Below are positions 5,004 through 37,055 of a DNA stretch of 49,576 nt, piece after piece. Within the stretch, counting starts at the first letter, position 1. Each line of letters begins with the position of its first letter. The notes below the pieces were generated by a model. It saw only the letters and a list, made by a program, of their open reading frames with translations, had not been told where the DNA came from and did not search any database. The translations under genes were made by a program, and so were the position numbers. The stretch is taken from the sequence record NC_016158.1; one strand, 5' to 3'. Source of the DNA: Escherichia phage HK639.

Positions 5004-5756
5004 ATGAAACTGAAACTTGATGCTAACGGAAATGTGGTCGTTGAAAACGGTATGCCTGTGTACATCCATGATGACGGCAAAGAGATCCCGTTCGACGCAG
5101 CCGCAGCGATGACCAAAATCACCTCCCTGAACGGTGAAGCTAAAACTCACCGTGAAGCGAAGGAGGCGGCGGAAGCCAGTCTCGCGAAATTCTCTGGCAT
5201 CACCGACCCGGCCAAGGCGCTCGAAGCCCTGGAGATGATGACCAAAATCGACCAGAAAAAACTGATCGATGCTGGTGCCGTTGACCAGGTAAAGGCGGAG
5301 ATCACCAAAGTTTTCCAACAGCAACTCGAAGAGGCGAACAGCAAGACCCAGCAACTGGAAACTCAACTCTACGACGAGATGATCGGCGGCCGCTTCGGTG
5401 GCTCCAAATTCATTTCAGAGAAGATGGCGATCCCGGCTGAGTTCGTGCGTTCGTACTTCGGGCAGAACTTCAAAATCGAAGACGGCAAGGTCGTGGCCTT
5501 CGACGGTCAGGGCAATAAGGTGTTCTCTCGCACCAAGCCTGGCGAGCTGGCTAGCTTCGACGAAGCGCTGGAGTCACTGGTCGAGTCGCATCCGCAGAAA
5601 GATTACATCCTCAAAGCGTCCGGTAACAGCGGCGGCGGTTCTCACCAGTCGCAGCACCAGGCCGGGCAAAAAACCATGAAACGCGATGCGTTTGATGCAT
5701 TACCTCCAGCAGAGCAACAGGCTGTGATTGGCGGCGGCACAAGCATCGTTGATTAA
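5004..5756 (+). CDS. Scaffolding protein
   Basis: 250 aa, helical and charged (coiled-coil-like QQLEEANSKTQQLETQLYDE), immediately upstream of the coat gene. Confidence 0.6.
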   Translation: MKLKLDANGNVVVENGMPVYIHDDGKEIPFDAAAAMTKITSLNGEAKTHREAKEAAEASLAKFSGITDPAKALEALEMMTKIDQKKLIDAGAVDQVKAEITKVFQQQLEEANSKTQQLETQLYDEMIGGRFGGSKFISEKMAIPAEFVRSYFGQNFKIEDGKVVAFDGQGNKVFSRTKPGELASFDEALESLVESHPQKDYILKASGNSGGGSHQSQHQAGQKTMKRDAFDALPPAEQQAVIGGGTSIVD

Positions 5757-32381: not shown

Positions 32382-32536
32382 ACCTTCACCTCAACCTGTT
32401 TCAGGAGGCCAGCGATATGCATCTGCCAGCGGTTCAGCGTCAGCTTGTCGCGCGGTGTCGACACCGACGTCAGCTGCCATTCGTTATCGTTGAGCTTTTT
32501 GGCGGTGTACTGCTTGCCGTTGTGGGTGACTGTCAT
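32378..32536 (-). CDS. Small hypothetical protein (52 aa, MTVTHNGKQYTAKKLNDNEWQL...)
   Basis: Not in the track; ATGA-coupled at both ends. Confidence 0.4.
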   Translation of the reverse strand: MTVTHNGKQYTAKKLNDNEWQLTSVSTPRDKLTLNRWQMHIAGLLKQVEVKV

Positions 32537-33048
32537 GATGCCTCCCTGGCTTTGGCATTTGCCGCATTGATGGCGTCAATGTTCATCAGGCAGTAGATAG
32601 CGCATTCTGCGTCGTAATCACTCAGCCCGCCGCTTGCCAGCTTGTTAAGTGCAGTGCCAGTTAAGCCGATCTTGAAGCAGATAGAGCCGTGCTTAGGGCC
32701 ATATCCATAACGATGATCTTCACGCTGGTCGCTCCATTGGGCGTAGTTTTTAGTGCCAAAATAACGCTCGCTCAGGCGCGGAAACCCGGATGCAATGTCG
32801 TTAATCGCATCTTCAACACACCCGCGCCGCTCCATGCTTTGCTTCGGGTCTCCGAAATTAACGATCGTCATGCCATGCTGGACCATCTCAACCGTAAGGC
32901 CTTTATTGGCCTGGTTGATTCCTTCAGACACGGCAATCAACTCCTTTCCGATACGTGAGGTATCGTCAACAAACTTCGCCTTCAACTGAGCCAGCTCAGC
33001 TTCAATTGCCATTTTCTTTTTGGTCAATTCGATAAGAGTCATAATCAT
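32533..33048 (-). CDS. Hypothetical early protein
   Basis: 171 aa, N-terminal coiled coil, no family recognised. Confidence 0.55.
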   Translation of the reverse strand: MIMTLIELTKKKMAIEAELAQLKAKFVDDTSRIGKELIAVSEGINQANKGLTVEMVQHGMTIVNFGDPKQSMERRGCVEDAINDIASGFPRLSERYFGTKNYAQWSDQREDHRYGYGPKHGSICFKIGLTGTALNKLASGGLSDYDAECAIYCLMNIDAINAANAKAREAS

Positions 33049-33178: not shown

Positions 33179-33200
33179 TAAAAAACCCGCCGGAGCGGGT
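33179..33200 (-). terminator. Intrinsic terminator (minus strand)
   Basis: Minus strand reads ACCCGC-TCCG-GCGGGT followed by TTTTTTATC, abutting the stop of the membrane-protein gene. Confidence 0.75.
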
Positions 33201-33649
33201 TACTTAATTAGTGAGGCTGCGTATTCGAGGAGATACAGTTTTGGGGCCAGCCAGATTTTTAGCCACGTCAGGTCAGATAAGATGACGAAGGCGATGACCG
33301 AATACAGGAACATAATGGTTCCAAAAAACACTGACGAAGCACTGATAGTGCCGTCTTTGTCCCAGACCAATGTTGGTCTATATTTTGGCTTGCCGCGTTC
33401 CCATGAATATCCCTCTTCGCCATAAACTCCGTCCTGCTCGCGCTTCATCATTACCCTGAAGAATTTAATCGCAACCGGGATAGTCGCCAGAATAACCAGC
33501 GTGAGCATCATGCTTTTGGTGAATTTCCATACCAGCAACTGATGCACAACCTCCGGGATCTGCGCTTGGCTAAATGACACCGCAGCATCGATGCCATTCG
33601 CCGCTTTCTGTAATAGATCAACGAGAATTTTGTTCGCTTGTTCGTTCAT
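33200..33649 (-). CDS. Membrane protein (two or more TM helices), possible superinfection-exclusion function
   Basis: 149 aa; hydrophobic stretches MMLTLVILATIPVAIKFF and VFFGTIMFLYSVIAFVILSDL; own terminator. Confidence 0.65.
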   Translation of the reverse strand: MNEQANKILVDLLQKAANGIDAAVSFSQAQIPEVVHQLLVWKFTKSMMLTLVILATIPVAIKFFRVMMKREQDGVYGEEGYSWERGKPKYRPTLVWDKDGTISASSVFFGTIMFLYSVIAFVILSDLTWLKIWLAPKLYLLEYAASLIK

Positions 33650-34181: not shown

Positions 34182-34388
34182 ATCTGCCATACACACCCCT
34201 CTGTTTGTTTACCGTCAGCCCCTCGCAAAGAGCTGCTGGTAAATCGTTTAGCCATAATTGCCGCTCTTCCTGAGCCCGCCTATGGTCCGACGCATGGTTT
34301 ACTGTCGCGCCGTTCGACTGACCGAATCTCCACTTCGCCGCTGGCTAACTTCCCTCAGCTATCGATGTTTCGTTTCGATGGATTAAAG

Positions 34389-34448
34389 ATAACCTTAGTT
34401 ATGAGTGATGGCAATAACCTAATTTATAATATCAATCACATAAGTTAT
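34389..34448. promoter_or_regulatory. OL-like operator cluster (three cI-type sites)
   Basis: ATAACCTTAGTTAT (34389-34402), ATAACCTAATTTAT (34414-34427) and ATCACATAAGTTAT (34435-34448). Compare the OR sites ATAAC(C/A/T)-NN-GGTTAT. Spacing 25 and 21 bp, in an AT-rich promoter-like context. Confidence 0.6.
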
Positions 34449-34525: not shown

Positions 34526-34723
34526 ATGGTTCTGGATGAAGAGCGTATAAGCATGAAAATTCAGGCGATGGGGCGGGCGGTGATGGAATTGTCACTGGCT
34601 GATTTACCCATGACCCAGCAAAACATCATCGACAAGCTGGAGCAGTACCGGAAGGAAACAGGAAACGTGATAGGGAAGGGCGTGAACAGGGATGCGGCTG
34701 AGATAGTGTGGAAAGGCTTATAG
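34526..34723 (+). CDS. Small regulator-like protein (possibly YmgB/AriR-like)
   Basis: 65 aa from ATG 34526 (6 nt after AGGAGGG). MGRAVMELSLADLPMTQQNIIDKLEQY... loosely resembles recalled AriR. Confidence 0.45.
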   Translation: MVLDEERISMKIQAMGRAVMELSLADLPMTQQNIIDKLEQYRKETGNVIGKGVNRDAAEIVWKGL

Positions 34724-34897
34724 ATGGTTAACGGTGTCACCAATGGTAAATCGTTTACCAAGGATGACAGCGTTTACCAGAGGGATCGGGTTGTTTACCA
34801 GCTGGCGGGGAATAGACGCCGTTAATGCCAGCATCCCATAATATTCAATTGGTTACGCTGACGTGGTGGTGGTGGTCGAATGGGGATCGGCAGACAC

Positions 34898-34921
34898 AAA
34901 AAACCCGGCGCGGGGCCGGGG
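34898..34921 (-). terminator. Intrinsic terminator ending the TAC-like cassette (minus strand)
   Basis: Minus strand reads CCCGGC-CCCGC-GCCGGG followed by TTTTTTGT, 6 nt after the stop of ORF 34927-35325. Confidence 0.75.
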
Positions 34922-34926
34922 AGGGG

Positions 34927-35325
34927 TTAGTTCATTGGAAGAGAAATTCCAGAAACTCCCGCTTGTGCAAGTAGGGTATCAGCGAAGAATTTAAAATAAG
35001 TTTTCATGAACGACGAAAAATACCATGTATTTTCAATAAGAAACGTTTCATCTACAGTTTTATCTTTTGGATATGTATAGACCATCTTCATATCTATTTT
35101 TAAAGAAAACACTTTTGTAGATTTATCAGGACCATAGCTATCAGCAAAGGGACTGGCATGAACGATAATCACTGATAGATCAGGGTTGGAAAGTAGAGTC
35201 CCGCCAGCCTCAAAATTTAAATCGCCATACTCGAAAGTAACCTCTCCGCCATAAGAGTCTCCTAAGCGCGAAATTGCGCTATTAGTTACTGATGCTTCAA
35301 TGAGTTGCAATTCGCTTAATAGCAT
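34927..35325 (-). CDS. SecB-like chaperone candidate (third gene of the cassette)
   Basis: 132 aa, beta-rich N-half, C-terminal ...FFADTLLAQAGVSGISLPMN resembling the SecB ...MVSRGTFPQLNLAPVNF end. Overlaps the antitoxin stop by 10 nt. Confidence 0.45.
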   Translation of the reverse strand: MLLSELQLIEASVTNSAISRLGDSYGGEVTFEYGDLNFEAGGTLLSNPDLSVIIVHASPFADSYGPDKSTKVFSLKIDMKMVYTYPKDKTVDETFLIENTWYFSSFMKTYFKFFADTLLAQAGVSGISLPMN

Positions 35326-35738
35326 TTCGTTTGATATTCCGCATTGCTTGTTTTAATAGTAATTTTAATGGTCTGGCCCGGGTTATCGCTAACATCGGCC
35401 GCTTTCCATGAGAGTCGTTTCATATCTGGAATGATGGCATGCGAGACGTCCACTCCTTCTCTTAATATGACAACTTTCGCCACGGCCCCTAAAGCATAGG
35501 CCATATCAGAAAGGGTTTTGAGAGTCATATTCCGAGTGCCGTCGAGCAGCTGGCTTACATGACCTTTAGATTTACCCAATTTTTTAGCTAGCTCGGACTG
35601 AGAAATGTTCGCGTCCTGCATTGCTAAAAGAAGGTCTTCAGTTGTGTTAAAGATCAAGCGCTCACACGCCATCTCTCGCTCACTAACCTCCGGGAAATCA
35701 AAATTATCATCACTAAACAGATTGTTAGCAATCATCAT
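35316..35738 (-). CDS. XRE-family HTH antitoxin (HigA-like) with C-terminal extension
   Basis: HTH ISQSELAKKLGKSKGHVSQLLDGTRNMTLKTLSDMAYALG, with about 45 extra C-terminal residues. The ATGs at 35738/35735 are preferred to track TTG 35750. Confidence 0.7.
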   Translation of the reverse strand: MMIANNLFSDDNFDFPEVSEREMACERLIFNTTEDLLLAMQDANISQSELAKKLGKSKGHVSQLLDGTRNMTLKTLSDMAYALGAVAKVVILREGVDVSHAIIPDMKRLSWKAADVSDNPGQTIKITIKTSNAEYQTKCY

Positions 35739-36129
35739 GGCCTCGCTCAATTCTTTCCCAATTATTTTTCACCTTTTGGACATCTGAGTCATCAAGTCGG
35801 TCAAAATCTTTGTATATGTAATGACTAATAAAAATCGTCATATCATGTCTGTCAGACTCCCAGTAGTAACCTCTAATCGGAATCTTCTTTATAGCCCAGA
35901 AATTCTTAGCTGGCTTTCCGTTAAACGATGGCAAAATTCCTTCTTTGCGAACACTCAAGTCAGGCGTCCTTTTGCCAGAAGCCAAGCGCTCAAGTTGCAG
36001 GATGAGTGATATCTGCATACTTTTCTGCCTCTTTGCAGGAGTAACGCTTTTCAGCGATTCGCTCAGGGATTTCAATGCTCCCTTACAATGCACTATCCGA
36101 TAACACTCACCCTGTATGGAGCCTTTCAA
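35725..36129 (-). CDS. RelE/HigB superfamily toxin (Gp49/DUF891-like)
   Basis: C-terminal core FWAIKKIPIRGYYWESDRHDMTIFISHYIYKDFDRL resembles Gp49-like HigB toxins. Toxin-first order. TTG start after GGTGA. Confidence 0.6.
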   Translation of the reverse strand: MKGSIQGECYRIVHCKGALKSLSESLKSVTPAKRQKSMQISLILQLERLASGKRTPDLSVRKEGILPSFNGKPAKNFWAIKKIPIRGYYWESDRHDMTIFISHYIYKDFDRLDDSDVQKVKNNWERIERGHDDC

Positions 36130-36145
36130 TTTATCACCATCTAAG

Positions 36146-36165
36146 AGTTAATATATATATTAACT
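36146..36165. promoter_or_regulatory. Perfect 20-bp palindrome AGTTAATATATATATTAACT, probable TA operator/promoter
   Basis: Read directly; 17 nt upstream of the toxin start; overlaps -10-like TATATT/ATATTA. Confidence 0.6.
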
Positions 36166-36291
36166 TGAAGGATACAAGTTAGTTTGACTTAAAATGCTTA
36201 TTAATATGTATGACTCTTCACACCGAGATGTGCCCTTCGATATTGTCACCAGCTATGCGCCGACCAGAACACCTTGCAGAAGCCCCAGCTG

Positions 36292-36981
36292 TCAAAGCTT
36301 GTTGTAAGCAATGGACTCATGGATCAGCGCCTTACCCATGATGTACAGCTGGTCCTGATTTTCTTCTGTCACATACCAGTCTTTGTACGCCGGGTTATCG
36401 GAAAGTACAGCCAACTGCAGACCCTGCATTTGCAGGCGCTTAACGTGGAAGTGCTGCCCGAAGACAAACGCATACACCCCGTCAACTTTGAAGTTCCTCA
36501 CTGAAACGTCAAAGAAGAGGCGATCGCCAGACTGTATTGTCGGGCACATGCTGTCGCCGTCTACGGTCATCACCTTCACATCATTTTGAGTGCGGTTCCC
36601 GAAAAGAGATCTGGCATGCTCAGTTGTGAACTCAATAGCATGCAGGACCTCAACAAATTCAGAAATCATAAAAGACCCCGGACCAGCGCTTACTTTCAGG
36701 TCTAAAACATCAACCCGAAAGACATCAATTGTTTCCGAGACCGGTTGGGCCGCCGATGGCACATTACCATCAATCCGCATTTCCCCCACTCCAGAACTAA
36801 GCCATTCCGGCCTTACACCCAGAGCATGAGCTAGCTCGACCATCTTACGGCTGCCGCTCGTTTTACCTGATGTCATCTTTTGAATTGCAGGCTGGGATAT
36901 ACCGACTTTATCAGCCAACTGTCCTTGAGATATGTCAGCGGCCGACATAGCCGCGTTCAGTCGTTCTGCAAATGTTTTCAT
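36292..36981 (-). CDS. cI: CI-type repressor (HTH + S24 LexA-like autopeptidase)
   Basis: HTH ISQGQLADKVGISQPAIQKMTSG; Ala-Gly site (VSAGPG); GDSM serine and VKRL lysine; divergent from cro across the operators. Confidence 0.9.
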   Translation of the reverse strand: MKTFAERLNAAMSAADISQGQLADKVGISQPAIQKMTSGKTSGSRKMVELAHALGVRPEWLSSGVGEMRIDGNVPSAAQPVSETIDVFRVDVLDLKVSAGPGSFMISEFVEVLHAIEFTTEHARSLFGNRTQNDVKVMTVDGDSMCPTIQSGDRLFFDVSVRNFKVDGVYAFVFGQHFHVKRLQMQGLQLAVLSDNPAYKDWYVTEENQDQLYIMGKALIHESIAYNKL

Positions 36982-36992
36982 CTTATCAATAT

Positions 36993-37055
36993 ATAACCGA
37001 GGTTATGTAGAGTAAAATAACAAAGGTTATGGACAATGCCCATAACTTGGGTTAT
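36993..37055. promoter_or_regulatory. OR operator cluster (three 14-bp palindromes)
   Basis: ATAACCGAGGTTAT (36993-37006), ATAACAAAGGTTAT (37017-37030) and ATAACTTGGGTTAT (37042-37055), between cI and cro. Confidence 0.85.

What the first reader, a model, noticed from the sequence alone, without database searches (positions are those of the whole stretch)
34927..36165. Toxin / HTH-antitoxin / SecB-like chaperone (TAC-type) cassette in the rexAB slot of the immunity region
Three tightly packed minus-strand ORFs lie immediately downstream of cI: 36129->35725, 35738->35316 and 35325->34927, with 14-nt and 10-nt overlaps. They sit between cI and a second cluster of cI-type operators (34389-34448), which is the position lambda uses for rexA-rexB. 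The block is visibly AT-rich. A perfect 20-bp palindrome (AGTTAATATATATATTAACT) lies 17 nt before its start, and it ends in a strong terminator. ORF1 has a RelE/HigB/Gp49-like core (FWAIKKIPIRGYYWESDRHDMTIFISHYIYKDFDRL). ORF2 is an XRE HTH protein with about 45 extra C-terminal residues. ORF3 (132 aa) has no DNA-binding features, but its layout and its C-terminal ...LLAQAGVSGISLPMN resemble SecB. Toxin-antitoxin-chaperone order with a C-terminally extended antitoxin is the hallmark of TAC systems such as M. tuberculosis Rv1955-Rv1957. I do not know of a described TAC-like module co-located with a phage repressor. It could act as a lysogen-expressed abortive-infection or exclusion device.
Basis: partly seen in the sequence, partly recalled or inferred. 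Interest (0 to 1): 0.8.

Follow-up and report, generated by a model that had tools for sequence, protein, structure and literature searches.

The report
Prophage toxin–antitoxin–chaperone (TAC) defence cassette
Just downstream of the phage repressor gene sit three small genes that encode a HigB-like toxin, its DNA-binding antitoxin and a SecB-like chaperone; this kind of module, in this same phage slot, was shown in 2024 to be an anti-phage system, so this is an unannotated new family of a known kind.

Summary
That covers the three overlapping minus-strand ORFs, the low G+C, the unique 20-bp palindrome, the terminator and three cI operators on each side.

ORF2 is an XRE-type HTH protein with a 48-residue tail. 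Its Trp motif aligns with the first chaperone-addiction motif of E. coli NT1F31 HigA.

The triad and an 18-bp operator palindrome recur in 35 of 35 related loci across Gammaproteobacteria. In most of them the third gene is detectably homologous in sequence to Rv1957 (E 1.3e-4).

Mets et al. 2024 described HigBAC, a TAC in exactly this slot downstream of cI, which defends against lambda by sensing its tail protein. The window's proteins are not close relatives of that system.

Verdict: a real TAC module and a new member of a known kind. Toxicity, chaperone dependence and defence are inferred, not shown.

The parts
36292..36981 (-). cI-like repressor (229 aa, HTH_3 plus Peptidase_S24). It is the upstream neighbour, and no terminator was predicted between it and the cassette.
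   Evidence: Pfam HTH_3 1e-8 and Peptidase_S24 6e-18; phrog_4 repressor 1e-59; terminator scan.
36993..37055 (.). OR: three cI-type operators of the form ATAACNNNNGTTAT, about 24 bp apart.
   Evidence: 8 matches in the window against 0.7 expected.
36146..36165 (.). Perfect 20-bp palindrome AGTTAATATATATATTAACT. It is the likely operator of the HTH antitoxin. It overlaps a -10-like TATATT, with a weak -35 (TTGTAT) 16 nt upstream.
   Evidence: Unique in the window. The 18-bp core GTTAAYATATATRTTAAC (up to 3 mismatches) lies just upstream of the toxin gene in 35 of 35 related loci and nowhere else in 280 kb. The promoter hexamers are my own reading; the consensus scan did not flag them.
35725..36129 (-). 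Toxin: HigB/Gp49-like RelE-fold protein, 134 aa, TTG start.
35316..35738 (-). Antitoxin: XRE-type HTH protein, 140 aa.
   Evidence: Pfam HTH_3 3e-7 at residues 40-84; weak HigA and HipB NCBIfam hits; 14-nt overlap with the toxin gene.
35319..35462 (-). C-terminal tail of the antitoxin (residues about 93-140), a candidate chaperone-addiction (ChAD) segment. It contains W111, the strand-like stretch TIKITIKT, Y135 and Y140.
   Evidence: BLASTP aligns DMKRLSWKAADV with NT1F31 HigA DMSAIEWSLVDA, which contains W128, the first ChAD motif (motif defined). The tail type changes with the chaperone type across loci.
34927..35325 (-). SecB-like chaperone, 132 aa.
34894..34920 (-). Intrinsic terminator that ends the cassette (CCCGGCCCCGCGCCGGG followed by TTTTTTGTGT).
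34389..34448 (.). OL: three cI-type operators. They mark the far border of the slot.
   Evidence: A pL-like promoter lies at 34484->34455 on the minus strand.

Best explanation
The cassette is a tripartite toxin-antitoxin-chaperone (TAC) module carried as a lysogen-expressed accessory gene set in the variable slot between cI and OL of a lambdoid prophage.

Proposed mechanism:

1. ORF1 is a HigB-type, ribosome-dependent mRNA endonuclease that would shut down translation.
2. ORF2 neutralises ORF1. As a dimeric HTH protein it also represses the cassette's own promoter by binding the GTTAAT-N6-ATTAAC palindrome.
3. The roughly 48-residue aromatic, strand-prone tail of ORF2 makes it unstable or aggregation-prone unless it is held by ORF3.
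4. ORF3 is a short SecB-like chaperone, presumably a tetramer.
5. In a lysogen all three are made, from their own promoter and possibly by read-through from pRM. The toxin stays silent.
6. When a different phage infects, an abundant phage protein competes for the chaperone's client groove. In the characterised HigBAC and CmdTAC systems this is a major tail or capsid protein.
7. The antitoxin then fails, HigB is freed, and translation stops before the invader completes its cycle. This is abortive infection or exclusion that benefits the resident prophage.

What is shown here: gene anatomy, conservation of the triad and of the operator, predicted folds, and the tail motif.

What is inferred: toxicity, RNase activity, operator binding, chaperone addiction, the trigger and the defence phenotype.
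For: Anatomy. Three overlapping co-oriented genes lie between an operator and a terminator.

Folds. ORF1 matches HigB, including the M. tuberculosis TAC toxin. ORF3 matches the Rv1957 TAC chaperone and SecB by two methods, with a clear gap to other folds. Both models have pLDDT of 87-90.

Conservation. The same T-A-C order occurs in phage mEp237 gp36-35-34, in Klebsiella and Citrobacter prophages, in prophages carrying the identical ORF3 and in 29 genome loci across Gammaproteobacteria.

Independent sequence link to TAC. In 27 of those loci the third gene is a longer type. Its profile hits one PDB sequence only, the Rv1957 SecB-like chaperone (E 1.3e-4).

Operator. The 18-bp palindrome is present in 35 of 35 loci and nowhere else in 280 kb.

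Antitoxin tails. ORF2 W111 aligns with HigA W128. Sister tails carry two Trp residues 27-31 residues apart, and 21 of 27 end in AA or VA. This matches the ~30-residue aromatic spacing and the ClpX-type ends described for validated TACs. The tail type changes together with the chaperone type, while the toxin, the HTH domain and the operator stay homologous.

Catalytic-type residues. K81, R86, H103, Y104 and K107 are invariant in 25 diverse toxins.

Precedent. NT1F31 HigBAC sits in the same slot and defends against lambda-vir and Bas25 by sensing gpV.
Against: There are no experimental data for this family.

No sequence profile assigns ORF1 or ORF3 to HigB, Gp49 or SecB. This holds for Pfam, NCBIfam, PADLOC and HMMER against the PDB.

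Profile-profile links of ORF3 to the longer chaperone type, to HigC and to SecB are weak (E 0.0044, 0.01 and 0.13), although they are colinear.

The folds are predictions from shallow alignments of 18 and 40 sequences.

The window's antitoxin lacks the AA or VA end (it ends in CY), and its tail is half the length of HigA's.

ORF3 lacks the C-terminal part of SecB. Its oligomeric state is unknown.

Some HigB homologues, such as M. tuberculosis HigB2 and HigB3, are not toxic.

My mapping of K81, R86 and K107 onto Rv1955 R68, R77 and K95 is a manual alignment against a sequence recalled from memory. hhalign could not reproduce it.
Confidence: 0.72

Rival explanations
1. The module is a real TAC, but its role is to stabilise the prophage or respond to stress rather than to defend against phage. 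Loss of the prophage, or proteotoxic stress that occupies the chaperone, would free the toxin and arrest growth.
For: Most relatives outside Enterobacterales lie in ordinary chromosomal contexts, not in prophages. Examples are loci next to ssb, transporter genes, an HsdR-like gene or another HigBA pair. The M. tuberculosis TAC was first described as a stress-responsive module.
Against: In Enterobacterales the cassette sits again and again in the prophage slot downstream of the repressor, next to varied repressors and replication modules. That slot carries the validated defence system HigBAC. Both TACs tested in E. coli gave phage protection. The two roles are not mutually exclusive.
Confidence: 0.17
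2. The module is an ordinary two-gene HigBA pair followed by an unrelated third gene. On this view ORF3 has a SecB-like fold but does not serve the antitoxin; it might be a standalone chaperone, or a decoy for phage or host proteins.
For: ORF3 has no significant sequence similarity to any known TAC chaperone. Chaperone-less gp49/HTH pairs exist, such as N15 gp49-gp48.
Against: The ORF2-ORF3 overlap is 10 nt, and the third gene is linked in all 34 loci in which a third ORF of this size was called. The antitoxin always carries a tail of about 45-55 residues beyond the HTH domain. The type of tail switches with the type of third gene. The best structural match of ORF3 is specifically the TAC chaperone solved in complex with a ChAD peptide.
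Confidence: 0.07
3. The proteins are not a toxin system at all. ORF1 would be a catalytically dead RelE-fold protein, and ORF2 an extra phage transcription regulator acting on the immunity region.
For: M. tuberculosis HigB2 and HigB3 are non-toxic. ORF2 lies among phage regulators and hits phage transcription-regulator PHROGs.
Against: Basic and aromatic residues of the kind used by RelE-type RNases are invariant across 25 distant homologues. The palindrome travels with the cassette into non-phage chromosomal loci, so it belongs to the module and not to the phage circuit. It occurs only once in the window.
Confidence: 0.04

Closest known systems
E. coli NT1F31 HigBAC (Mets et al. 2024, bioRxiv 10.1101/2024.02.24.581848; later in Cell Host Microbe 32:1059)
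   Same: The gene order is toxin, HTH antitoxin with a ChAD tail, then a short SecB-like chaperone (134 aa against 132 aa here). The location is the same, directly downstream of a LexA-type cI and before OL/N of a lambdoid prophage. The first ChAD Trp motif aligns. Neither HigC nor ORF3 is recognised by Pfam SecB.
   Different: The toxin there is a 95-aa Rts1-type HigB, and BLASTP against ORF1 is not significant. The chaperones are not significantly similar (BLASTP 0.07; hhalign 0.01). HigA is 218 aa with a 96-residue ChAD carrying four aromatic motifs. ORF2 is 140 aa with a tail of about 48 residues. The trigger (lambda gpV) and the defence spectrum are known there and unknown here.
M. tuberculosis TAC, Rv1955-Rv1956-Rv1957 (HigB1/HigA1/SecB-TA)
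   Different: The window's proteins show no detectable sequence similarity to it. The window's antitoxin ends in CY, not VA. The hosts are Gammaproteobacteria and a prophage rather than an actinobacterial chromosome. ORF3 is shorter than Rv1957.
CmdTAC (E. coli O112ab:H26 / ECOR22; PMC11618068) and MqsRAC
   Same: Both are tripartite TACs with a SecB-like chaperone. CmdTAC is prophage-borne and anti-phage, and in these systems the chaperone is the phage sensor.
   Different: The toxins are unrelated: CmdT is an mRNA ADP-ribosyltransferase and MqsR is a different RNase family. The antitoxin families also differ.
Phage N15 gp49-gp48 and other chaperone-less Gp49/HigB-HTH pairs (PF05973)
   Same: The toxin comes first, followed by an XRE HTH antitoxin. 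The toxin has a RelE fold and the pair is phage-borne.
   Different: There is no third gene and no antitoxin tail. ORF1 and 24 relatives do not hit PF05973.
Lambda RexAB
   Same: Only the position (between cI and OL) and the presumed logic of a lysogen-expressed exclusion device are shared.
   Different: There is no homology and the mechanism is different. RexAB works by membrane depolarisation; this cassette would work by translation shut-off.

Membership tests
TAC (toxin-antitoxin-chaperone) systems | Three co-oriented, tightly linked genes in the order toxin, antitoxin, chaperone | tested here: met
   Overlaps of 14 and 10 nt. The same order was found in 34 related loci.
TAC (toxin-antitoxin-chaperone) systems | Toxin with the fold of a type II TA toxin | tested here: met
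TAC (toxin-antitoxin-chaperone) systems | Antitoxin with a DNA-binding domain plus a C-terminal chaperone-addiction extension carrying aromatic motifs | tested here: met
   HTH_3 at residues 40-84 and a tail at residues 93-140 with W111, Y135 and Y140. W111 aligns to HigA W128. Two conserved aromatic positions are seen across the family. Whether the tail functions as a ChAD was not testable.
TAC (toxin-antitoxin-chaperone) systems | Third protein with a SecB fold | tested here: met
TAC (toxin-antitoxin-chaperone) systems | The antitoxin neutralises the toxin only when the chaperone is present; the toxin alone is toxic | not testable with these tools
   This needs expression assays.
TAC (toxin-antitoxin-chaperone) systems | Autoregulatory operator at the promoter | tested here: met
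   A palindrome lies 16 nt upstream of the start codon, and its core is conserved in 35 of 35 loci. Binding by ORF2 was not testable.
Pfam Gp49 (PF05973) and HigB toxin families | Match to the family HMM above the gathering score | tested here: not met
   No hit at E up to 1-5 for ORF1 or for 24 relatives. A profile search against PDB sequences found no HigB.
SecB (PF02556), housekeeping export chaperone | Match to PF02556 | tested here: not met
   No hit for ORF3 or for 33 distant relatives. The validated HigC also fails this test, so the test is insensitive.
SecB (PF02556), housekeeping export chaperone | C-terminal helix and tail that bind SecA; the yibN-grxC-secB-gpsA operon context | tested here: not met
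   ORF3 ends about 11 residues after the long helix (H100-121 of 132 aa). It lies in a prophage TA operon.
E. coli NT1F31 HigBAC family (orthology) | Significant sequence similarity of toxin and chaperone | tested here: not met
   BLASTP: toxin E 0.10, chaperone E 0.07. hhalign with the ORF3 family against HigC: E 0.0015 over 26 columns and 0.01 over 73 columns, both at low probability. Only the antitoxin HTH plus the first ChAD motif aligns (E 6e-4).
E. coli NT1F31 HigBAC family (orthology) | Location in the hotspot downstream of cI in a lambdoid prophage | tested here: met
M. tuberculosis-type TAC (Rv1955-57) | Antitoxin ends in a ClpX-type Val-Ala or Ala-Ala degron | tested here: not met
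   ORF2 ends in CY. None of the 5 antitoxins paired with an ORF3-type chaperone ends in AA or VA. Among antitoxins paired with the longer chaperone type, 21 of 27 do.
Lambda RexAB | Homology to RexA or RexB | tested here: not met
   No Pfam, PHROG or PADLOC hit of that kind. Only the position is shared.

The most novel reading that the evidence does not exclude
One conserved core is paired in nature with two very different SecB-like chaperones. The core is the HigB-like toxin, the HTH domain of the antitoxin and the 18-bp operator. One chaperone is an Rv1957-like protein of about 160 aa, found mostly in chromosomal loci. The other is the 132-137-aa ORF3 type, found so far only in enterobacterial prophages and in phage mEp237. 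The antitoxin tail changes together with the chaperone. In TACs the chaperone is the phage sensor. The ORF3 clade could therefore be a prophage-specialised sensor with a trigger of its own. That would make this family a natural version of the synthetic chaperone swap that Mets et al. engineered.
Probability: 0.35. Interest if true: 0.5.

Novelty: new member of a known kind. Interest (0 to 1): 0.36.

Why it matters
TAC systems are a recently recognised class of anti-phage immunity in which a chaperone doubles as the sensor of phage structural proteins. This cassette shows that the hotspot downstream of cI in lambdoid prophages holds at least a second TAC lineage, unrelated in sequence to the first. 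Current annotation and defence-finder profiles (Pfam, NCBIfam, PADLOC) miss it completely.

It is not rare. The identical chaperone protein is indexed in 184 blocks of public assemblies. Related toxins occur on hundreds of contigs and in 29 species-level genomes.

Practical gains would be HMMs for two unannotated families and a conserved operator that marks the module. The family also offers a natural series in which the chaperone and the antitoxin tail were exchanged on a constant toxin core. That series could be used to study how sensor specificity evolves. None of this overturns current understanding.

Tried and rejected
- **Sequence-profile identification failed throughout.** ORF1 and ORF3 gave nothing in Pfam, NCBIfam or PADLOC. 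phmmer and hmmsearch against PDB sequences also found nothing. Pfam scans of 34 ORF3 relatives and 25 ORF1 relatives were empty.
- **PADLOC PDC-M64B/C and PD-Lambda-2_B hits of ORF2.** These cover only the HTH domain and were not taken as membership.
- **Near-identity DNA searches for the cassette.** They found nothing in 50,697 phage records or in 5,426 complete E. coli genomes.
- **The search for related loci with the ORF3 alignment.** The ORF1 alignment was used instead.
- **NT1F31 TAC sequence.** It is cut short in the paper's supplement. I recovered it from the NT1F31 genome.
- **Catalytic-residue mapping.** That sequence agrees with all ten residue identities named in PMC9098466. The catalytic-residue mapping therefore stays a manual inference.
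- **Fold library afdb50.** It was unavailable.
- **Literature search for 'mEp237'.** It returned only unrelated DOI strings.
- **Considered and rejected.** Housekeeping SecB, because the context is wrong and the SecA-binding end is missing. RexAB homology. An Abi AIPR_N hit of ORF1 (E 0.13, below cut-off). The idea that the palindrome is a cI or Cro site, because it differs from the ATAACNNNNGTTAT operators and follows the cassette into non-phage loci.
Full report
**1. The observation**

The window reads as a complete lambdoid phage genome of 49.6 kb. Its early region resembles phi80 and some Enterobacter phages at about 89% identity in patches.

- ORF1 runs 36129->35725 (134 aa, TTG start).
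- ORF2 runs 35738->35316 (140 aa).
- ORF3 runs 35325->34927 (132 aa).
- The overlaps are 14 nt and 10 nt.
- Upstream lies a 229-aa repressor with HTH and S24 peptidase domains (36981->36292).
- G+C falls to 0.37-0.45 inside the block, from about 0.50 outside it.
- The 20-bp palindrome at 36146-36165 is perfect and unique in the window.
- A G:C-only hairpin with a T-run follows ORF3 at 34920-34904.
- The motif ATAACNNNNGTTAT occurs three times right of cI (36993-37055) and three times at 34389-34448. Eight matches were found in the window against 0.7 expected.

The cassette therefore lies between cI and OL, the position of rexAB in lambda. One more gene shares the slot: a 65-aa plus-strand ORF at 34526-34723 (phrog_3975).

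**2. What the proteins are**

Sequence libraries are silent on ORF1 and ORF3.
- Pfam, NCBIfam and PADLOC give no hit. ORF3 matches only an unnamed phage family, phrog_19522.
- HMMER against all PDB sequences finds nothing, whether with single sequences or with family profiles.
- ORF2 is a plain XRE-type HTH protein (HTH_3 at residues 40-84, E 3e-7).

Homologue searches gave 67 relatives of ORF1 and, with a profile, 17 of ORF3. AlphaFold2 models built on those alignments are confident: pLDDT 89.8 for ORF1 and 87.3 for ORF3.

Foldseek agrees. Its 19 best hits are all SecB or Rv1957 chains (E 1e-5 to 5e-4, TM 0.57-0.65).

The failure of Pfam SecB is not informative. The experimentally validated HigC chaperone of E. 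coli NT1F31 also gets no Pfam hit.

**3. Conservation and a sequence-level link to TAC**

The same triad lies downstream of the repressor genes in several places.
- Coliphage mEp237 carries it as gp36-gp35-gp34.
- Klebsiella and Citrobacter koseri prophages carry it.
- Several prophages carry an ORF3 identical to the window's, next to different replication modules. That protein is indexed in 184 blocks of public assemblies.

A scan of one genome per species found 29 more loci across Gammaproteobacteria. They include Alcanivorax, Halieaceae, Pseudoalteromonas, Methylobacter, Photorhabdus and Serratia. In all but one of these loci the toxin homologue is followed by an HTH gene and a third gene of chaperone size, mostly with overlaps.

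Only the enterobacterial prophage loci have an ORF3-type third gene. The others, and the C. koseri prophage, carry a longer protein of about 152-190 aa with the motif NVGYHVWPYWREYVQS. A profile of that type hits exactly one PDB sequence, Rv1957 (E 1.3e-4).

The toxin-antitoxin core of this family is therefore tied to a TAC chaperone by sequence as well as by fold. ORF3 is a divergent or replaced version of that chaperone. Its profile aligns colinearly but weakly with the long type (E 0.0044 over 85 columns), with HigC (0.01) and with SecB (0.13).

The chromosomal loci are not next to phage repressors. Capture into the cI hotspot therefore looks secondary.

**4. Operator, start codon and antitoxin tail**

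The core of the palindrome, GTTAAYATATATRTTAAC, lies just upstream of the toxin gene in 35 of 35 loci. It occurs nowhere else in the 280 kb examined. It travels with the cassette and is distinct from the cI operators. The natural reading is that it is the autoregulatory site of the HTH antitoxin. In the window it overlaps a -10-like TATATT. This promoter assignment is my own reading; the consensus scan did not call it.

Many relatives begin at GTG or TTG at the same distance from the palindrome. The first 37 residues are also conserved, with G7, H14, G17 and A18 invariant. Both points support the TTG start over the internal ATG that some public gene calls use, giving 97 aa.

Across 25 diverse toxins E63, K81, R86, Y88, W90, H103, Y104, K107, N123 and W124 are invariant. 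By topology K81, R86 and K107 could correspond to the residues R68, R77 and K95 needed for Rv1955 toxicity. That mapping is manual and hhalign could not confirm it.

The ORF2 tail (residues 93-140) aligns at DMKRLSWKAADV with HigA DMSAIEWSLVDA. W128 in that HigA segment is the first aromatic motif of the validated ChAD.

Tails paired with the long chaperone carry two conserved Trp residues 27-31 residues apart, and 21 of 27 end in AA or VA. Tails paired with ORF3-type chaperones have an aromatic residue, an ..IKI.. strand-like stretch and [E/D]Y, and none of the 5 ends in AA or VA. Validated TACs show the same features: aromatic motifs about 30 residues apart and ClpX-type AA or VA ends in HigA1 and CmdA, while NT1F31 HigA does not depend on ClpXP.

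The tail type switches with the chaperone type while the rest of the module stays homologous. This is the best indirect evidence available here that the tail and the chaperone work together.

**5. Comparison with what is known**

Mets et al. (bioRxiv 10.1101/2024.02.24.581848) characterised E. coli NT1F31 HigBAC. [quoted passage not shown]
- HigBA is toxic unless HigC is present.
- Removing the ChAD removes the dependence on HigC.
- The system protects against lambda-vir and Bas25.
- HigC senses the lambda tail protein gpV, which competes with the ChAD.

I retrieved that locus. It reads cI, then HigB (95 aa), HigA (218 aa), HigC (134 aa), then N.

The window's proteins are not its orthologues. 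Toxin and chaperone show no significant BLASTP similarity. Only the HTH domain plus the first ChAD motif aligns (E 6e-4).

By fold, the window's toxin is closest to S. pneumoniae HigB and M. tuberculosis HigB1, whereas NT1F31 HigB is a 95-aa Rts1-type HigB.

The kind of system and its place in the phage are therefore both published. The lineage is new and unannotated.

**6. Mechanism and confidence**

I rate 'a TAC module' at about 0.85. I rate the full model, including chaperone addiction of the antitoxin, at about 0.7. I rate anti-phage defence triggered by a phage structural protein at about 0.5-0.55.

The main rival is the same module acting mainly in prophage maintenance or stress response. 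The two roles can coexist.

**7. Verdict**

The novelty claim has been overtaken by the 2024 work.

What remains of interest is moderate:
- two unannotated protein families;
- a conserved operator signature;
- a natural exchange of chaperone and tail on a constant toxin core.

Noticed in passing
window 34526-34723 (+): A 65-aa gene with a strong Shine-Dalgarno sequence (AGGAGG) lies between the cassette's terminator and OL. It is convergent with the cassette. It matches phrog_3975 (unknown function, E 2.6e-34). A 65-aa gene occupies the same place and orientation in prophages L037-L040 that carry the identical ORF3.
   Followed up: partly
window 34238-34252 and 34745-34759: The 15-bp palindrome GGTAAACGATTTACC occurs twice, one copy with 1 mismatch, against 0.04 expected. 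The copies are 507 bp apart and bracket OL/pL and the phrog_3975 gene. Further TGGTAAAC repeats lie at about 34760-34810. They could be binding sites or module junctions; this is unexplained.
   Followed up: partly
L037-L040, gene at 5308-5601 (and proteins P0051, P0052, P0054): Public gene calls start the toxin at an internal ATG, giving 97 aa, or in one case 122 aa. Conservation of the first 37 residues and the fixed distance to the operator point to a TTG or GTG start and 134 aa. A weak start codon on the toxin gene appears to be common in the family.
   Followed up: partly
L002/L003 5001-6365 (Citrobacter koseri prophage): The same slot downstream of the repressor holds the variant of this TAC with the long, Rv1957-like chaperone (164 aa). 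Both chaperone types therefore occur in prophages.
   Followed up: partly
L022 2982-3707 (Photorhabdus tasmaniensis): A separate pair that looks like classical HigB/HigA lies on the opposite strand, directly upstream of the TAC homologue. This is judged from the translations alone. The arrangement would be a small TA cluster.
   Followed up: no
window 33200-33649 (-) and 32533-33048 (-): Two well-conserved phage genes of unknown function lie left of the N-like region (phrog_3054, E 3e-55; phrog_13608, E 5e-102). The first looks like a membrane protein and could be another lysogen-expressed exclusion gene.
   Followed up: no
window 34800-36300: The cassette has no match at about 85% DNA identity or above in 50,697 phage records or in 5,426 complete E. 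coli genomes. The flanking phage genes do have relatives at 89-95% identity. This fits recent modular insertion of lower-G+C DNA.
   Followed up: yes
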